IMG/VR virus record: IMGVR_UViG_2778261457_000004
DNA length: 16,924 nucleotides
Source: a virus
Taxonomy: Duplodnaviria > Heunggongvirae > Uroviricota > Caudoviricetes
Direction: 5' to 3' (one strand)
A program made the position numbers and the translations under genes. This document shows, piece after piece, positions 9,738-14,614 of this stretch (position 1 is the first letter of the stretch; each line of letters begins with the position of its first letter). Under the pieces are notes generated by a model. The model had not been told where the DNA came from and did not search any database. It saw only the letters and a program-made list of their open reading frames with translations.

Positions 9738-10347
<610 letters not shown>

Positions 10348-10457
10348 GTCATTTGTTACCGGTCAGTCTACACATTTCAGATGCTGCGTTAAAAAACCCA
10401 AGTACTTCAAGTAGCACATCGTCATCAACACCCAGCCCCAAGATACGGTGATAAAAT

Positions 10458-11492
10458 TCAAGCCTTAAGAGGCTTTGTGTATGTTCGTGTAATCCATCCA
10501 GTAATAAACTCGTCCCCTGATTTAACCTGCACGAAAAGCCATTGGCGATCTTTTTTATCTAAAACAGCCACTATAGTATTTTTGCCAATGCATTCAATCA
10601 CCTCACTATTTATAGAAGGACTGACGTGTAATCTTACGTTCTCACCAGTTATAAAACGAAAACCATTGAGATCTTCCCAACTAATTTCTTTGTTTTCTTT
10701 AATTAATTGTTGTTTTGATATTGGTTTATCCTCAAACAGAGATATAAAATATGATTCTGCCTTGTGTATTCCCAGCAAGGTTTTCTCTTTTCCGTAATCA
10801 ATAAAAGCACCAAACACAACTTGAGAAAATATAACCATTAGTAACCATTGCAGTGGATAAGGAAGCTCTTTAAATGAATCAACAAACTTTGAGCTAGGTT
10901 TATTTAATCCTTTGTTTTGAACATTACTTTTGGTGTGTGATGTTTCAGTAGCACCTTCAGCATAAGCCTGCGCAATAGATGAAATCCCCTGCTCTATTAT
11001 TTGATGTAATGAAGCATTTCTTGTTCTAGCATAGTGATCTAGTACTTTCTTTATGTCTTGGCTTACATCTATTTTATAACTTGCACTTTGTTGTAATTCT
11101 TTAAGTATCGCTTGCATGTTATTTAAACCAGCTTGCTTATTAAGCACCTCAAGCTGTTTTCGTAATGGCATAGCTATTTCGGCCTGTTTCCTTAGCATTT
11201 GAATATATCTATTTGCGTCATGAGGGAAAAGAGCCTGAGGATGTTTCTGTAAAATCGCGATATGTTCACGATACTTGCTGCCTATTCCAGCCAAGTTCGG
11301 CATACTAGCCAATTGTTTTCGAAGAGAGTTACTAATTACAGCTTGTCTATTCAATCTTGTCATATTTTGAAAAGAATGTTTTTCTATTCCTAATTGTTTT
11401 TGCAAGATCACTACGTGATCTTTGTATGATGGAATGAGCGCTGGCTGTTTATACAGTAACTTCAACTCATTAGAATTAGTAATTTTTGTCAT
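10458..11492 (-). CDS. Bitopic membrane protein with cytoplasmic tandem-repeat region and C-terminal SH3b-like domain, 344 aa
   Basis: AT-rich ORF. ATG at 11490-11492 preferred; the ORF track's TTG at 11525 would add 11 codons. TATAAT-like sequence directly upstream. Internal imperfect repeats (HVVILQKQL…LRKQLASMPNLAGI / HIAILQKHP…LRKQAEIAMPLRKQLEVLNKQAGL). One predicted TM helix (LQWLLMVIFSQVVFGAFIDYG). C-terminal ~75 aa has the SH3b pattern (…VRLHVSPSINSEVIECIGKNTIVAVLDKKDRQWLFVQVKSGDEFITGWITRTY). Confidence 0.7.
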   Translation of the reverse strand: MTKITNSNELKLLYKQPALIPSYKDHVVILQKQLGIEKHSFQNMTRLNRQAVISNSLRKQLASMPNLAGIGSKYREHIAILQKHPQALFPHDANRYIQMLRKQAEIAMPLRKQLEVLNKQAGLNNMQAILKELQQSASYKIDVSQDIKKVLDHYARTRNASLHQIIEQGISSIAQAYAEGATETSHTKSNVQNKGLNKPSSKFVDSFKELPYPLQWLLMVIFSQVVFGAFIDYGKEKTLLGIHKAESYFISLFEDKPISKQQLIKENKEISWEDLNGFRFITGENVRLHVSPSINSEVIECIGKNTIVAVLDKKDRQWLFVQVKSGDEFITGWITRTYTKPLKA

Positions 11493-11566
11493 ATTATTCC
11501 ATTTATATAATAGAATATTACGCAACCAATGTTTTATTGATTGCGTTAATCTTTAACACAGAAAGA

Positions 11567-12043
11567 TCATTTGCCTCGTTTAATACATCCATCCATTTTG
11601 GCTTGTTGATACAACTTACTTAGCCCAGAAAGAGGGAATGTAGCAATTTTTTCATTATCAACATAAGCATCAATCATATTAGCATTTGAATCTGCTGCAT
11701 CTTGCCAAAAGGCATACCACCAAGAATCTCCAACCATTGATCCAAGATTGCTAAAAGGATATTGCTCACCATCTATAGTTAATACTATTTTATTCTTGTC
11801 AGCATTATACTCTTTTTTATTATTCGACGAACTTAGCAACAAGCCTAAACTACCTGCACTATCTGGTGAACCATACATGAATCCCATATCACATAAAAAA
11901 CTTATCTTATCACCATTATGATTATGGATTGTATATTCTCTCCCCCCTCTCTCTTCAATTACATTCCATTGTAGAGGATCTATTTTTGCAAATGTTCCTG
12001 CTGAAACTAACGATACAAATAATAAAAACCATCTCATATTCAT
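11567..12043 (-). CDS. Secreted/periplasmic protein with Sec signal peptide, 158 aa
   Basis: AT-rich ORF; N-terminus MNMRWFLLFVSLVSAGTFA|KID is a typical signal peptide with an AxA-like cleavage site; two Cys residues; no recognisable family. Confidence 0.7.
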   Translation of the reverse strand: MNMRWFLLFVSLVSAGTFAKIDPLQWNVIEERGGREYTIHNHNGDKISFLCDMGFMYGSPDSAGSLGLLLSSSNNKKEYNADKNKIVLTIDGEQYPFSNLGSMVGDSWWYAFWQDAADSNANMIDAYVDNEKIATFPLSGLSKLYQQAKMDGCIKRGK

Positions 12044-12065
12044 TCTTTTCGCTTCTTATCTGTAA

Positions 12066-12416
12066 TTATTCTGCAATATCATTTGCCCATTGCACGGCAG
12101 CAAAATGAGTACCCAAACCACTCAGGAAAGCAATTACCCCCAAAACAATACTTGCTGCTGTTGATTCAAACAAAGTACCAATACTATAGCCAATAGCTCC
12201 CCATACTAAGCTAAATACAATCATCAATGGTATTGCCAGAAATTTTATTCTTAAACTAAAAATCAGTCCAAGAAAAGAACCGCCAAAGGCCCACCATGAT
12301 TTAGACATTAAACCTATCAGTATTGACAGAATTCCTATTTCAATAAAGAGAATATTAGATTGCTCTTCATTGAATTTCGCATTTGTTACACCTTTACGAA
12401 CATGTTCAGATGACAT
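12066..12416 (-). CDS. Small polytopic inner-membrane protein (about 4 TM helices), 116 aa
   Basis: AT-rich ORF with ATG at 12414-12416 and AGGAG about 11 nt upstream. Four hydrophobic segments (ILFIEIGILSILIGLM, WWAFGGSFLGLIFSL, IPLMIVFSLVWGAIGYSIG, ASIVLGVIAFLSGLG). Confidence 0.65.
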   Translation of the reverse strand: MSSEHVRKGVTNAKFNEEQSNILFIEIGILSILIGLMSKSWWAFGGSFLGLIFSLRIKFLAIPLMIVFSLVWGAIGYSIGTLFESTAASIVLGVIAFLSGLGTHFAAVQWANDIAE

Positions 12417-12562
12417 GATTAACTATCTCCTGCCACAGATAAAACGCCTTAAAATAACATTTTGTAGCATAAAGTTTCACCATGCAATGGTCAAAATCTT
12501 TGACCCATATCAATTAAACTCATACATTTTAGTTACCAGAGAAATAATTCACATGGTTGCAA

Positions 12563-12579
12563 GTTGCTCTAATTATTTT
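12563..12579 (+). promoter_or_regulatory. P1 C1-repressor-type operator (Op51-like) upstream of the immunity region
   Basis: GTTGCTCTAATTATTTT matches the asymmetric 17-bp C1 operator consensus ATTGCTCTAATAAATTT (recalled) at 14 of 17 positions. It shares the exact 10-bp core TTGCTCTAAT with two further sites in the window. Confidence 0.5.
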
Positions 12580-12651
12580 ATTTTTTTAGCTTCATATGCT
12601 ACATTAACTTGCTTTAGTGCTAATGCATTTTCGGTTTATCCTAAACAGGCA

Positions 12652-12728
12652 TCTTAGTAAAACGGATGCCGGGATTGGAACCCCGGATAATGCAAAAGGC
12701 GACACAGACGCCAAAAGCGTCTTTTTTT
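12652..12728 (+). ncRNA. Candidate c4-like antisense repressor RNA (boundaries approximate)
   Basis: Stem-loop CCGGG-ATTGGAAC-CCCGG (12669-12686) followed by a terminator-like hairpin. Segment 12669-12700 is an imperfect inverted copy of 12810-12841, which lies just upstream of the icd-like ribosome binding site. Position between a C1-type operator and an icd-ant pair mirrors the P1/P7 immI organisation. Confidence 0.35.
12707..12728 (+). terminator. Intrinsic terminator-like hairpin with U-run
   Basis: GACGC (12707-12711), loop CAAAA, GCGTC (12717-12721), then TTTTTTT (12722-12728) on the plus strand. Confidence 0.5.
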
Positions 12729-12809
12729 GTGTCATGCCATCGCACAGCCATACGTAGCACATAGCTCCGAGATCAATGGTAGTGCTGGCTGGGCTGCCGA
12801 AAGGCAGGC

Positions 12810-12871
12810 CGGTTCCCTTTTGCGCCGGTAGTTCCAACCCAGTCAGTGCTACCGCCATTGAGATTGGAACC
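12810..12871 (+). promoter_or_regulatory. Antisense target / leader region of the icd-ant operon
   Basis: CCTTTTGC (12816-12823), CCGG and GTTCCAA (12831-12837) are complementary to GCAAAAGG, CCGG and TTGGAAC in 12669-12700. GATTGGAACC is directly repeated at 12672-12681 and 12862-12871. GCTACCGC (12848-12855) and GCGGTAGC (12876-12883) form an 8-bp inverted repeat. Confidence 0.4.
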
Positions 12872-12913: not shown

Positions 12914-13135
12914 GTGGCTACTATCCCTACCCCTACTCATCCTGAATTTATCTGGCGCTTTTACTCCTGCCAAAAACAACACTATCACTTCGTTATCGCA
13001 GCAACTGAAGACGAAGCACGCTCTCAATTGCCTGATGGCCCCTGCATTTTTACTGCCCGTTTTTCTACTAACTCGCGCAATTCACTTAGTTACTGGAACC
13101 TCCCCTTCTCTGCCGACGTTCAGGGGGTTTTATGA
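12914..13135 (+). CDS. icd: Small icd-like protein, 73 aa, translationally coupled to the antirepressor
   Basis: GTG start at 12914 eight nt after a GGAGG SD. The stop TGA overlaps the antirepressor ATG (ATGA at 13132-13135). Architecture matches P1 icd; the 73-aa length of P1 Icd is from memory and sequence homology is not verified. Confidence 0.5.
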   Translation: MATIPTPTHPEFIWRFYSCQKQHYHFVIAATEDEARSQLPDGPCIFTARFSTNSRNSLSYWNLPFSADVQGVL

Positions 13136-14520
13136 AAAAACCTCTCGTCACCCGTAATGAAATTGCCGAAGCGTTCGCTTTGCATACAACCTGTATGCCG
13201 ACACGGGAGATCCCCGGCGCAATTGCCAACTATTTCATGATAACCAGGCGTTTTTATACCCGAACAGATAAGGCTGTGATCAACAGGCTACTGATAGCCG
13301 AGATCAGGGATTATTTGATTGAACAAGGACGTCTACGTTACGCAACAGTGGCAGCAGAAATGAGAAAGGAGGCACATAGAATGACCGGTAATAATTTGAA
13401 TGTTGAAAAACCAGCACCTGTTGCTTCAGCTACGCCATCACCAGCTGTGAATGTTATCTCCAACACTGGAGACACAATCGACAGCCAGACACTGTTAAAG
13501 ATGGTCAATGAAGCGCGTAAGTTATGTGGGGAACCAGCGGTTCGGAACAACAAATTCATCGAAAAAATACTCGACGAATTAGAAGGTGAGGACGGTTACA
13601 CAAAAAGTGCAACCGTGCCACCAGGTGGCGGTACGCCTATGGTTGTCATAACCATGACCTACAAACAAGCCCTGCGAGTTGCCGCGCGCGAGTCAAAAGC
13701 GGTCCGCCGTTCGCTACAAACCATGATTCAGGCATTGGAACCTATAAATGTTGAAAATCAGCCTGATGAAATTCCCGTTCTGGAATGGCAGGGAGTACGC
13801 GTCGTGACAACCGAGACTCTTGCTAGAGGGTATGACACTACACCTATTCGTATTCAGCAGAACTACAATCGCAACGAAGAACGATTTGTAGAGGGTAAAC
13901 ACTTCTTTAAAATCAAAGGAGATGAGATAAAAAGTTTGCGACTATCTTTTAGCGAGTTGCAAATTTCCCCCAAGACCAGATCCTTAATACTCTGGACCGA
14001 ACGCGGAGCGGCACGCATGTCTAAGATCGTAGACACAGAGCAAGCGTGGGCATTCTTTGAAAAACTGGAAGACAGCTACTTCCGGCAAAAAGAACAGCAA
14101 CCGGTCACAATCCCCCAAACATTACCAGAAGCCTTGCGCCTGGCCGCCGAGTTGGCAGAACAGAAAATGCAGTTGGAACAACAGCTGGTGGCCGCAGCCC
14201 CTAAAGTCGATTTTGCCGACCGGGTATCAGTGGCTAATGGAATCCTGATCGGGAACTTTGCAAAGGTCGTTGGACTTAAGCAAAACGCCCTTTTCTCATG
14301 GTTGCGCCAGAATGGCATTCTCATGGCTTTTGGAGCGCGCAAAAACGTACCGCGCCAACAGTACATCAACGCCGGGTATTTCACGGTGAAAGAAGTGGTG
14401 CTGGATGATGAAAATGGCTACCAGATACGGCTGACGCCCCAATTAACGGGTAAAGGCCAGCAGTGGTTAACTCGCAAGCTACTTGATGCTGGTTTGTTAA
14501 AACCAGTAGCAATAGGTTAA
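13132..14520 (+). CDS. ant: Phage antirepressor (Ant) with C-terminal KilAC/AntC domain, 462 aa; possible second product from an internal in-frame start
   Basis: ATG at 13132 with AGGGGG SD. Middle region resembles antirepressor ORF6N/AntA-type domains (…WQGVRVVTTETLARGYDTTPIRIQQNYNRNEERFVEGKHFFKI…LILWTERGAARMSKI…). The C-terminus (…LPEALRLAAELAEQ…APKVDFADRV…GYFTVKEVVLDDENGYQIRLTPQLTGKGQQWL…) is the KilAC-type antirepressor domain. An internal in-frame ATG at 13381 follows a strong AAGGAGG SD. Confidence 0.85.
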   Translation: MKKPLVTRNEIAEAFALHTTCMPTREIPGAIANYFMITRRFYTRTDKAVINRLLIAEIRDYLIEQGRLRYATVAAEMRKEAHRMTGNNLNVEKPAPVASATPSPAVNVISNTGDTIDSQTLLKMVNEARKLCGEPAVRNNKFIEKILDELEGEDGYTKSATVPPGGGTPMVVITMTYKQALRVAARESKAVRRSLQTMIQALEPINVENQPDEIPVLEWQGVRVVTTETLARGYDTTPIRIQQNYNRNEERFVEGKHFFKIKGDEIKSLRLSFSELQISPKTRSLILWTERGAARMSKIVDTEQAWAFFEKLEDSYFRQKEQQPVTIPQTLPEALRLAAELAEQKMQLEQQLVAAAPKVDFADRVSVANGILIGNFAKVVGLKQNALFSWLRQNGILMAFGARKNVPRQQYINAGYFTVKEVVLDDENGYQIRLTPQLTGKGQQWLTRKLLDAGLLKPVAIG

Positions 14521-14597: not shown

Positions 14598-14614
14598 TTT
14601 GCTCTAATAAATTT
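14598..14614 (+). promoter_or_regulatory. P1 C1-repressor-type operator (Op53-like) upstream of kilA-repL
   Basis: TTTGCTCTAATAAATTT matches the recalled C1 operator consensus ATTGCTCTAATAAATTT at 16 of 17 positions, about 70 bp upstream of the kilA-like start. An 8-bp inverted repeat AATCACCA…TGGTGATT lies at 14633-14656. Confidence 0.6.

What the first reader, a model, noticed from the sequence alone, without database searches (positions are those of the whole stretch)
10458..12416. AT-rich three-gene accessory module between the tail operon and the immunity region: 4-TM membrane protein, signal-peptide periplasmic protein, repeat-TM-SH3b protein
These three minus-strand genes are visibly much more AT-rich than the flanking tail and immunity genes, which suggests horizontally acquired cargo. 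They have promoter-like AT-rich leaders of their own, including a TATAAT-like box before the 344-aa gene. All three products are envelope-targeted. The largest has an unusual architecture: a cytoplasmic domain with imperfect tandem repeats (LRKQ-containing units, also visible as a DNA-level repeat at about 11245-11280 and 11395-11430), one TM helix and a periplasmic SH3b-like domain. P1 carries its sim superimmunity locus in the equivalent slot, next to c4, and Sim is a processed signal-peptide protein (from memory). Here the genes point the opposite way to c4 and none matches a family I recognise, so this may be a different, undescribed exclusion or defence module.
Basis: partly seen in the sequence, partly recalled or inferred. 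Interest (0 to 1): 0.7.

Follow-up and report, generated by a model that had tools for sequence, protein, structure and literature searches.

The report
Mosaic envelope-protein cargo in P1 sim slot
Three real, AT-rich genes for envelope proteins replace the sim superinfection-exclusion genes of a P1-like phage-plasmid; they are separately mobile cargo rather than one fixed system, their function is untested, and the largest belongs to a widespread uncharacterised repeat-membrane-SH3 protein family.

Summary
Three minus-strand genes (116, 158 and 344 aa) at 34% GC sit between pmgC and the c4 immunity region, which are at 47% GC. This is exactly where P1 carries simCBA.

Two details are wrong. 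P1's sim genes also point away from c4. Promoter-like sites are no commoner than chance.

The trio is not one fixed module:
- The 4-TM protein and the secreted protein travel together, and also occur with a DUF4760 gene in place of the SH3 gene.
- The SH3 gene also occurs behind a 28%-identical paralogue of the secreted protein.
- The 4-TM protein has relatives on Anoxybacillus and Moraxella plasmids.

The secreted protein belongs to the YfjT/YkfB family. Its confident model matches no characterised fold.

The 344-aa protein belongs to a large unnamed family (410 cluster representatives). Members have variable N-terminal tandem repeats, one membrane segment and a conserved C-terminal SH3b domain. 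Remote members stand alone, beside integrases, McrBC, a retron, restriction genes and prophage packaging genes.

No known defence or exclusion family matches. The slot is a published low-GC variable region, and every inspected cassette encodes envelope proteins. Prophage-expressed exclusion or defence at the envelope is the best guess, but it is inferred only.

The parts
10367..12600 (.). Low-GC (0.34) cargo cassette that replaces P1 simCBA, between pmgC with its late promoter and the immI (c4) region
   Evidence: Composition. Identity to P1 ends at about window 10357-10366. C4 RNA and immI lie from about 12.65 kb. P1 map.
12066..12416 (-). A116: 116-aa small inner-membrane protein with four hydrophobic segments and a basic N-terminus; phrog_15014, unknown function
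   Evidence: dN/dS 0.08-0.15. Relatives at 45% identity on an Anoxybacillus plasmid that carries terminase and portal genes, and at 32% on Moraxella bovis plasmids.
11567..12043 (-). B158: 158-aa secreted (signal peptide, predicted cleavage after A19) periplasmic protein of the YfjT/YkfB family (PF27224), with a conserved Cys51/Cys153 pair
   Evidence: AF2 model pLDDT 82. No characterised fold match. dN/dS 0.10-0.20.
10458..11492 (-). C344: 344-aa protein with an N-terminal helical repeat region, one membrane segment and a C-terminal SH3b domain (alternative TTG start at 11525)
11151..11435 (-). Region of C344 encoding the duplicated ~52-aa units (aa 20-114; YKDHVVILQKQ / YREHIAILQKH and LRKQL motifs)
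   Evidence: Self-comparison against shuffles. This region is hypervariable in repeat unit and copy number across the family.
10791..10856 (-). Hydrophobic membrane segment of C344 (aa 213-234), only moderately hydrophobic, preceded by the conserved LPxPxQ motif
   Evidence: Its position, about 108 aa from the C-terminus, is constant in 131 family representatives.
10479..10640 (-). SH3b (SH3_3) domain of C344, aa 285-338; the most conserved part of the family
   Evidence: Pfam 1.1e-5, 26 bits against a gathering score of 27. All 131 relatives match SH3_3, best 6e-13. Invariant columns cluster in aa 239-340. No non-synonymous change against L104. Nearest solved relative is the 2kq8 cell-wall hydrolase SH3.
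11520..11546 (-). Hairpin in the 74-nt AT-rich (24% GC) B-C spacer; terminator-like but with a weak T tract
   Evidence: In other cassettes the B-like and SH3 genes abut or overlap.
12466..12494 (-). Best sigma-70-like match upstream of A116 (TTGACC-17-TATGCT); not statistically distinguishable from chance
12563..12579 (+). C1-operator-like site (GTTGCTCTAATTATTTT, 3 mismatches) in the divergent A116/c4 intergenic region, at the position of P1 Oc4
10336..10354 (-). Homologue of the P1 late promoter LPsit, downstream of the cassette, so the cassette lies outside the late tail operon
   Evidence: 98% identity of window 10300-10357 to P1 46572-46629, with the P1 annotation of LPsit at 46608-46626.

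Best explanation
The region is accessory cargo in the sim hotspot of a P1-like phage-plasmid. It consists of three separately exchangeable genes rather than one obligate system.

Shown:
- A116 is a small 4-TM membrane protein.
- B158 is a secreted periplasmic YfjT/YkfB-family protein.
- C344 has the features of a bitopic protein. Its variable repeat-containing N-terminal part would face the cytoplasm, and its highly conserved SH3b domain, of the type found in cell-wall hydrolases, would face the periplasm.

Inferred:
- The genes are expressed from the plasmid prophage independently of the late tail operon.
- They act at the cell envelope to stop other phages, as P1 Sim, T4 Imm/Sp and P22 SieA do. 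This would be either a block on passage of incoming DNA or ejection proteins through the periplasm and inner membrane, or a response to wall damage.
- The most likely working model for C344 is that the SH3b domain fixes the protein to peptidoglycan (or to an incoming tail component). The fast-evolving cytoplasmic repeats would then provide the specificity or effector contact.
- A+B form a second, separate unit.
For: Position:
- The cassette replaces simCBA exactly, in the same orientation, upstream of LPsit.
- P1 sim genes are dispensable for lytic growth (PMC10695390).
- The sim region is one of eight low-GC hypervariable regions of P1-like phage-plasmids (PMC9603915).

Slot census of 80 IMG/VR pmgC loci, of which 68 had a complete slot:
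- There were at least seven alternative cassettes. All those inspected encode secreted, lipoprotein or membrane proteins.
- They include a lipoprotein with a weak TraT-like match and a membrane-anchored DUF559 nuclease.

Mosaic structure:
- A+B occurs with the SH3 gene (6 slots) or with DUF4760 (2 slots).
- The SH3 gene occurs behind a 28%-identical B paralogue plus full-length SimA (7 slots).
- B occurs without the SH3 gene in 18 slots.
- In PLSDB, about 51 plasmids carry A, about 56 carry this B type and 27 carry this C type.

The genes are real: dN/dS is below 1 for all three.

C344 family:
- It has 410 cluster representatives. The C-terminal part after the membrane segment is a constant ~106 aa (~108 aa by the segment definition), and 46 of 131 members have strong tandem repeats with periods of 12-53 aa.
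- Basic residues favour the N-terminal flank of the membrane segment in 85 members against 17.
- Remote members have no conserved neighbour. Among 73 genes within two positions of them are integrases, resolvases, terminase with portal, McrBC, a retron reverse transcriptase, a type IIG restriction enzyme, Abi_alpha and Mrr.
Against: - There is no experimental evidence and no homology to any characterised exclusion or defence protein.
- Expression in the lysogen is not shown, and promoter matches are at chance level.
- The membrane segment of C344 is only moderately hydrophobic, and its structure model is poor (pLDDT 40). The topology is therefore inferred.
- In P1-like slots the SH3 gene always follows a B-family gene (14 of 14 complete slots). 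This could mean B and C do work together there.
- The defence and mobile-element neighbourhood of remote relatives rests on about 28 independent short metagenome loci, without a matched background.
- Some neighbours are housekeeping genes.
- Sim itself is poorly understood, so 'same slot' is a weak guide to function.
Confidence: 0.45

Rival explanations
1. The three genes form one obligate three-component envelope system. A sits in the inner membrane, B in the periplasm and C spans both, and they work only together.
For: - The genes share a strand and are tightly packed: the A-B gap is 22 nt.
- A is always found with this B type in P1-like elements.
- The SH3 gene is always preceded by a B-family gene in 14 of 14 complete P1-like slots. 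In other cassettes the two genes abut or overlap.
Against: - C is replaced by DUF4760 in about half of the A+B plasmids (counts).
- A is replaced by a full-length SimA-like protein in other SH3 cassettes.
- A-family genes occur alone in Anoxybacillus and Moraxella plasmids.
- 31 remote C-family loci have no B-family neighbour and no conserved neighbour at all.
- In this window B and C are separated by a 74-nt spacer with a hairpin.
Confidence: 0.2
2. The genes are lysogenic-conversion morons that benefit the host envelope (stress tolerance, serum or bacteriocin resistance, surface exclusion of plasmids), not phage exclusion. Lambda bor and lom and plasmid traT are examples of this kind.
For: - All products are envelope proteins.
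- An alternative cassette in the same slot has a lipoprotein with a weak TraT match (23 bits).
- YfjT/YkfB paralogues sit in K-12 cryptic prophages next to a lipoprotein and a small membrane protein, with no known phage phenotype.
- The carriers are mostly clinical and animal E. coli.
Against: - There is no homology to any virulence or resistance factor.
- The P1 occupant of the slot is an exclusion function.
- Remote C-family members sit beside restriction, retron and Abi genes rather than virulence genes.
Confidence: 0.2
3. The genes serve the phage's own lytic cycle, for example lysis control, tail assembly or help with its own DNA injection.
For: The genes are adjacent to and co-oriented with the tail operon. 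An SH3b domain is typical of cell-wall-acting phage enzymes.
Against: - They lie upstream of the late promoter LPsit.
- They are present in only about 27 of the 403 matching PLSDB plasmids and are freely replaced by unrelated cassettes.
- P1 sim genes are non-essential.
- No catalytic domain was found.
- tblastn of C344 found no match in 50,697 phage records.
Confidence: 0.05
4. The ORFs are decaying or spurious reading frames in AT-rich junk DNA.
For: Low GC, no characterised family, and a poor structure model for C344.
Against: - dN/dS is 0.08-0.40 with intact frames across dozens of plasmids.
- B158 gives a confident model.
- Divergent homologues keep the same architecture.
Confidence: 0.03

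Closest known systems
P1 sim locus (simA-simB-simC; superimmunity / superinfection exclusion)
   Same: Identical genomic slot and orientation between pmgC/LPsit and c4. Low GC. It also encodes signal-peptide envelope proteins and is dispensable cargo.
   Different: No sequence or profile similarity of A, B or C to SimA, SimB or SimC. The architectures differ: a 4-TM protein, a YfjT-like protein and a repeat-TM-SH3b protein. No phenotype is known.
YfjT / YkfB of E. coli K-12 cryptic prophages CP4-57 and CP4-6 (PF27224)
   Same: B158 is a homologue, with the same size, a signal peptide and a conserved Cys pair. In K-12 the gene also follows a small membrane protein gene (ypjK) and an envelope lipoprotein gene (yfjS).
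   Different: About 26-28% identity. The K-12 neighbours are not homologous to A116 or C344. The family has no assigned function, so membership explains nothing mechanistically.
Bitopic peptidoglycan-binding membrane proteins: cell-wall hydrolase SH3b domains, TIGR04211 YgiM-type 'SH3 and anchor', and SPOR proteins such as DamX or FtsN as a topological analogy (the analogy is from my own knowledge)
   Same: The C-terminal SH3_3 domain is of the cell-wall hydrolase type. There is a single membrane segment, with a predicted cytoplasmic N-terminus and periplasmic C-terminus.
   Different: There is no hydrolase domain. The TIGR04211 match is 10.6 bits against a cut-off of 65, and that family has the opposite domain order. 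The hypervariable N-terminal tandem repeats have no counterpart.
Inner-membrane or periplasmic exclusion proteins of other phages (T4 Imm and Sp, P22 SieA; PMC11436027, PMC10883804)
   Same: They are prophage- or phage-encoded small envelope proteins that would act on incoming phage at the periplasm or inner membrane. This is the proposed mode of action only.
   Different: No homology was detected; the PHROG and PADLOC scans give only unknown-function families. No phenotype has been tested.

Membership tests
P1 Sim superimmunity proteins | Sequence homology to SimC (or SimA/SimB) | tested here: not met
   blastp all-against-all gave no hit. hhalign of the B-family profile against SimC and SimB gave probability 0.6%.
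P1 Sim superimmunity proteins | Location between pmgC and c4, transcribed away from c4 | tested here: met
P1 Sim superimmunity proteins | Post-adsorption exclusion of superinfecting P1 when expressed | not testable with these tools
   Needs plating and DNA-entry assays.
YfjT/YkfB family (PF27224) - B158 | Significant sequence match to family members, including K-12 YfjT | tested here: met
   Precomputed PF27224 on the cluster. The profile of P1-type members hits YfjT at 53 bits and 8e-18 in a 4-sequence test set; blastp gives 8e-7 to 8e-11 against the session's 22-protein database. RefSeq product name. The NCBIfam release 20 scan itself gave no hit.
YfjT/YkfB family (PF27224) - B158 | Signal peptide and a conserved pair of cysteines (periplasmic protein) | tested here: met
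   M1-A19 signal sequence. C51 and C153 are invariant across nine sequences including YfjT.
Bacterial SH3 domain (Pfam SH3_3) - C344 | Match to PF08239 at or above the gathering score | tested here: inconclusive
   C344 itself scores 26.0 bits against a gathering score of 27 (E 1.1e-5). All 131 relatives match, best 6.3e-13, and the precomputed hits list PF08239. The domain assignment is sound at family level.
TIGR04211 'SH3 and anchor' (YgiM type) | Equivalog score of at least 65 bits, with signal peptide-SH3-anchor order | tested here: not met
   10.6 bits. The domain order is reversed.
Known anti-phage defence systems (PADLOC-DB v2) | Match of any of the three proteins to a defence-system model | tested here: not met
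   No family at E <= 1 for A, B or C.
Ribbon-helix-helix DNA-binding proteins (considered for C344 aa 141-168) | RHH match that recurs in homologues | tested here: not met
   Only weak single hits (Pfam E 0.098; PHROG Arc-like 0.004). RHH is not among the families shown as matched by two or more of the 131 relatives.
Periplasmic lysozyme / transglycosylase inhibitors (Ivy, MliC/PliC, PliG) - considered for B158 | Fold similarity to a solved inhibitor | tested here: not met

The most novel reading that the evidence does not exclude
C344 would represent a widespread, so far unnamed family of single-gene anti-phage proteins anchored in the envelope. In this reading a peptidoglycan-binding periplasmic SH3b domain positions the protein at the site of phage entry, and a rapidly expanding and contracting cytoplasmic tandem-repeat array determines which phage is blocked or triggers the response. 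The P1 sim slot would then be a swap-site for many mechanistically different envelope-level exclusion cassettes, with A+B (a small membrane protein plus a YfjT-like periplasmic protein) as a second new type.
Probability: 0.25. Interest if true: 0.8.

Novelty: new variant of a known kind. Interest (0 to 1): 0.55.

Why it matters
P1-like phage-plasmids are common in clinical and animal E. coli and carry resistance genes, so what they exclude shapes which phages and plasmids can enter those strains.

The work turns a vague 'hypothetical proteins' block into three defined, testable units. It also shows that the sim position is a cassette-exchange site that appears devoted to envelope proteins.

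It further identifies a large uncharacterised repeat-TM-SH3b family whose remote members sit in mobile and defence contexts. If that family is anti-phage, it would add a new envelope-level mechanism and give a function to hundreds of proteins now annotated only as 'SH3 domain-containing'.

It would also give a first functional lead for the E. coli K-12 y-genes yfjT and ykfB.

Tried and rejected
- RHH or Arc-like DNA-binding motif in C344 (aa 141-168). The weak hits did not recur in 131 relatives, so this was rejected.
- Remote homology of the B family to SimB or SimC. None was found.
- Structure of C344. The AF2 model had pLDDT 40 and was unusable for fold search. Profile searches against the PDB gave only an SH3 hit.
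- The afdb50 fold library was unavailable.
- Scan of genome contigs with the B-family alignment. An alignment including YfjT was too divergent for pattern design.
- Scans of viral contigs. The Citrobacter relative P0079 gave nothing, and A116 gave only near-identical P1-like contigs.
- tblastn of C344 against 50,697 phage records gave no match.
- Literature. Nothing was found on DUF4760, DUF5384 or PF27224, and nothing functional on yfjT or ykfB. The P1 genome paper is not held.
- The crude hydrophobicity-sum test of the C344 membrane segment was not decisive. The control signal peptide scored similarly.
Full report
WHAT THE WINDOW IS

The window is part of a P1-like phage-plasmid. Megablast of 10300-12700 against phage records matches only the first ~60 bases, to the pmgC end and late promoter LPsit of P1 and P7. 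Against PLSDB, 403 plasmids match some part and 27 match the whole stretch at 97.6-99.5%. Among complete E. coli genomes, 37 of 5,426 carry the whole stretch, and almost all matching places of any length lie on plasmids.

The P1 annotation shows that simC, simB and simA lie between pmgC/LPsit and the C1 operator Oc4, c4 RNA, icd and ant. All three sim genes are on the strand opposite to c4. In the window, Rfam places C4 RNA at 12772-12859 on the plus strand. The finding therefore occupies exactly the sim slot, in the same orientation as sim.

CHECK OF THE OBSERVATION

The three ORFs exist at 12066-12416 (116 aa, here A116), 11567-12043 (158 aa, B158) and 10458-11492 (344 aa, C344). C344 could also start at a TTG at 11525.

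GC is 0.344 for 10366-12600, against 0.471 to the left and 0.46 to the right, with sharp edges.

- A116 has four hydrophobic segments.
- B158 has a textbook signal peptide.
- C344 has one hydrophobic segment (aa 213-234) and a Pfam SH3_3 match at 285-338. That match scores E 1.1e-5 and 26 bits, one bit under the gathering score.

C344 has a real internal duplication of about 52 aa. The best 12-mer pair scores 40 and the second 32, while the maximum over 200 shuffles was 32, so only the first pair exceeds every shuffle. Five L(R/Q)K(Q/H) motifs are present.

Promoter-like matches (8) are no more frequent than in shuffled sequence (9.6 +/- 3.5), so the 'own promoters' claim is not supported statistically.

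All three genes are under purifying selection when compared with diverged plasmid copies. dN/dS is 0.08-0.15 for A, 0.10-0.20 for B and 0.40 for C. Within C, the SH3 part has no non-synonymous change, and the divergence is concentrated in the N-terminal part.

THE SLOT IS A KNOWN VARIABLE REGION AND A CASSETTE-EXCHANGE SITE

A published comparison of P1-like phage-plasmids lists simC-simB-simA as one of eight hypervariable regions and notes its low GC (PMC9603915). A CRISPRi essentiality map of P1 scores simA, simB and simC as non-essential (PMC10695390).

I fetched 80 IMG/VR loci through the conserved neighbour pmgC and classified what lies between icd and pmgC. The sample is not dereplicated. 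Of the 80 loci, 68 had a complete slot:

| Slot content | Complete slots |
|---|---|
| None of my reference families | 19 |
| Full-length SimA-like protein + 158-aa B-family protein (37% identical to B158) | 16 |
| P1-type simA (truncated) - simB - simC | 15 |
| A + B + SH3 (the arrangement in this window) | 6 |
| SimA-like + 168-aa B-family protein (28% identical) + SH3 protein (61-77% identical; one further slot has a partial match) | 7 |
| A + B + a DUF4760 gene on the other strand | 2 |
| B-like + SH3 + a fragment of this window's B type + DUF4760 | 1 |
| SimA-like + a 34%-identical SimC relative | 1 |

I inspected two of the 19 slots that lacked every reference family, L013 and L040. Both carry a 173-190-aa lipoprotein and a 179-aa DUF5384 protein. 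L040 has in addition a 419-aa protein with an N-terminal membrane segment and a DUF559/REase_MTES_1575 nuclease domain.

Annotated plasmids show the same variants. Every cassette I inspected encodes secreted, lipoprotein or membrane proteins.

THE TRIO IS A MOSAIC, NOT ONE FIXED MODULE

- A116 is always found with this window's B type in P1-like elements. PLSDB holds about 51 plasmids with A and about 56 with this B type.
- Only 27 of those plasmids carry this C type. In annotated examples and in the census, A+B is otherwise followed by DUF4760 at the same sub-position, between B and pmgC.
- The SH3 gene also occurs with a different first gene and a very divergent B paralogue.
- In P1-like slots the SH3 gene is always preceded by a B-family gene (14 of 14 complete slots). 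In those other cassettes the two genes abut or overlap. B occurs without the SH3 gene 18 times.
- In this window B and C are separated by a 74-nt, 24%-GC spacer with a hairpin.
- C344 lacks the ~45 N-terminal residues of its longer relatives. This fits a recombinant junction.

WHAT EACH PROTEIN IS

A116
- It matches only phrog_15014, which has no known function. It has no Pfam, NCBIfam or PADLOC match.
- tblastn finds a 45%-identical gene on an Anoxybacillus caldiproteolyticus plasmid that also carries terminase and portal genes. It also finds 32%-identical genes on Moraxella bovis plasmids. Neither has B- or C-like neighbours.
- A116 is therefore a widely travelled, self-contained small membrane protein.

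B158
- It carries the precomputed Pfam family PF27224, and RefSeq names it 'YfjT/YkfB family phage-associated protein'.
- A profile of the P1-type members hits E. coli K-12 YfjT at 53 bits. Two cysteines (C51 and C153) are invariant across the family, including YfjT.
- In K-12, yfjT follows ypjK (a small membrane protein) and yfjS (an inner-membrane lipoprotein) in the cryptic prophage CP4-57. The arrangement is similar, but the neighbours are not homologous to A116 or C344.
- The AlphaFold model is confident (pLDDT 82, pTM 0.77) and shows a beta-rich fold with two helices.
- It is not related to SimB or SimC, and no lysozyme-inhibitor fold appears in the lists.

C344
- Its close relatives (48 clusters) come almost all from contigs up to ~90-100 kb, the size of P1-like elements, or from short fragments. 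They occur in Escherichia, Salmonella, Citrobacter, Pseudocitrobacter and Yersinia.
- Their alignment shows an N-terminal region built of tandem repeats that differ in unit sequence and in copy number, even between close relatives. All invariant columns lie in aa 239-340, which is the stretch after the membrane segment plus the SH3 domain.
- An exhaustive profile search of 1.84 billion representatives found 410 relatives, 139 of them at E <= 1e-10.

The sequences I read have the same plan as C344. It consists of striking N-terminal tandem repeats, a linker that is often acidic, one hydrophobic segment, and a C-terminal SH3 domain ending GW(I/V)xRxYT. Among 131 representatives:
- 105 have a hydrophobic segment at the threshold used.
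- The part after the segment is a constant ~106 aa.
- The N-terminal part has a median of 223 aa.
- 46 have strong tandem repeats with periods of 12-53 aa.
- All 131 match SH3_3, and no other Pfam domain recurs beyond related SH3 models.

The nearest solved sequence relative of the domain is a cell-wall hydrolase SH3 (2kq8). Basic residues are more numerous on the N-terminal flank of the hydrophobic segment in 85 members against 17. Together with the lack of a signal peptide, this supports a cytoplasmic N-terminus and a periplasmic SH3 domain. The segment is only moderately hydrophobic, so this topology is inferred and not shown.

Named members come from chromosomes of Citrobacter, Pantoea, Kluyvera, Brenneria, Proteus, Methylomonas and Alloalcanivorax, and from a Latescibacterota MAG. 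All are labelled only 'SH3 domain-containing protein'.

CONTEXT OF REMOTE C-FAMILY MEMBERS

A metagenome scan with one remote subfamily returned 31 loci.
- There is no conserved neighbour and no B-family gene.
- Among 73 genes within two positions there are two integrases and two resolvases.
- One locus (L125) has a terminase and portal pair.
- One locus (L126) has McrB and McrC directly downstream.
- The set also includes a retron-type reverse transcriptase, a type IIG restriction-modification enzyme, Abi_alpha, Mrr_cat and DUF4365.
- It also includes plain housekeeping genes.

This looks like a gene that lives in mobile and defence islands. The sample is small, contains a few duplicates and has no matched background.

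HOW IT MOST LIKELY WORKS

Shown: the genes are real, envelope-directed, horizontally exchanged cargo in the sim slot. They lie outside the late tail operon, because LPsit is downstream of them. They assort as separate units.

Inferred: they are prophage-expressed and act at the envelope against incoming phage, as the slot's P1 occupant does. Other phages use small envelope proteins in the same way, for example T4 Imm and Sp and P22 SieA (PMC11436027, PMC10883804).

For C344, the conserved periplasmic SH3b domain most likely tethers the protein to peptidoglycan or to an incoming tail component. The fast-changing cytoplasmic repeats would carry the specificity or effector contact. I put about 0.45 on this overall reading. 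The structural part (mosaic cargo of three envelope proteins) is much more certain than the functional part.

RIVALS
- One obligate three-part system: 0.2.
- Host-benefit envelope morons unrelated to phage: 0.2.
- A role in the phage's own lytic cycle: 0.05.
- Junk DNA: 0.03.

NOVELTY

The variability and low GC of the sim region are already known. These points are new here:
- the resolution of the block into separable units;
- the link of B158 to YfjT/YkfB;
- the finding that P1 SimA is a truncated remnant of a longer secreted protein;
- the recognition of a broad repeat-TM-SH3b family.

No function is demonstrated. I therefore class the finding as a new variant of a known kind (prophage envelope cargo in an exclusion hotspot), with moderate interest.

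Noticed in passing
L002 6341-6499 (P1 simA) against L006 1802-2449, L007 1924-2415, L005 3682-4320: P1 SimA (52 aa) is about 90% identical to the first ~40-50 residues of 163-215-aa signal-peptide proteins ('simA domain protein') in other P1-like plasmids. The P1 gene therefore looks like a truncated remnant of a longer secreted protein, left when simB-simC were inserted.
   Followed up: partly
L013 4856-5377 and 5381-5920: The commonest class in the IMG/VR slot census (19 of 68 complete slots) matched none of my reference families. The two slots of this class that I inspected, L013 and L040, carry a 173-190-aa glycine-zipper lipoprotein with a weak, sub-threshold TraT match (23 bits against 31), plus a 179-aa secreted coiled-coil DUF5384 protein.
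   Followed up: partly
L040 4611-5870: One P1-like contig has, in the same slot, a 419-aa protein with an N-terminal membrane segment, a proline/lysine-rich repeat stretch and a DUF559/REase_MTES_1575 nuclease domain (weak PADLOC PDC-S37 and Hhe matches). This is a candidate membrane-anchored nuclease at a phage-entry-related locus.
   Followed up: partly
window 12649-12727 (+) and 12772-12859 (+): Rfam finds an IsrK-like Hfq-binding sRNA (58.5 bits) immediately upstream of the C4 antisense RNA (76.7 bits). The immI leader here aligns poorly with that of P1. In a near-identical RefSeq plasmid, a 39-aa 'ash family protein' CDS is annotated on top of the C4 RNA, which is probably a mis-annotation.
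   Followed up: no
L010 3995-4345 (Anoxybacillus plasmid pBstUI51); L011 4001-4360 (Moraxella bovis plasmid): A116 has a 45%-identical homologue in a thermophilic Bacillota plasmid that also carries terminase and portal genes, and 32%-identical homologues on Moraxella plasmids next to a tail-anchored coiled-coil protein. This is a cross-phylum spread of a tiny membrane protein on mobile elements.
   Followed up: partly
L009 8446-9616 (E. coli K-12 CP4-57 ypjK-yfjS-yfjT): The K-12 homologue of B158 sits in a trio of small membrane protein, inner-membrane lipoprotein and YfjT. This echoes the membrane-plus-periplasmic pairing seen here, although the partners are not homologous.
   Followed up: partly
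window 13132-14520 (+): The Ant1-like antirepressor is 462 aa here, against 347 aa in P1 and in the closest RefSeq plasmid. The extra ~115 residues are an internal insertion.
   Followed up: no
window 14598-14614 (+): A near-perfect C1 operator (TTTGCTCTAATAAATTT, 1 mismatch) lies upstream of the kilA homologue and corresponds to P1 OrepL/Op53. A weaker operator-like site at 12563-12579 lies between A116 and c4.
   Followed up: partly
alignment A3, rows P0066, P0067, P0069, P0070 (Citrobacter relatives of C344): Close relatives differ mainly in the number of copies of a 19-aa unit (SVSLSERITKLAQGSTIAD), giving lengths of 384 to 481 aa. The repeat array therefore expands and contracts on short evolutionary timescales.
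   Followed up: partly
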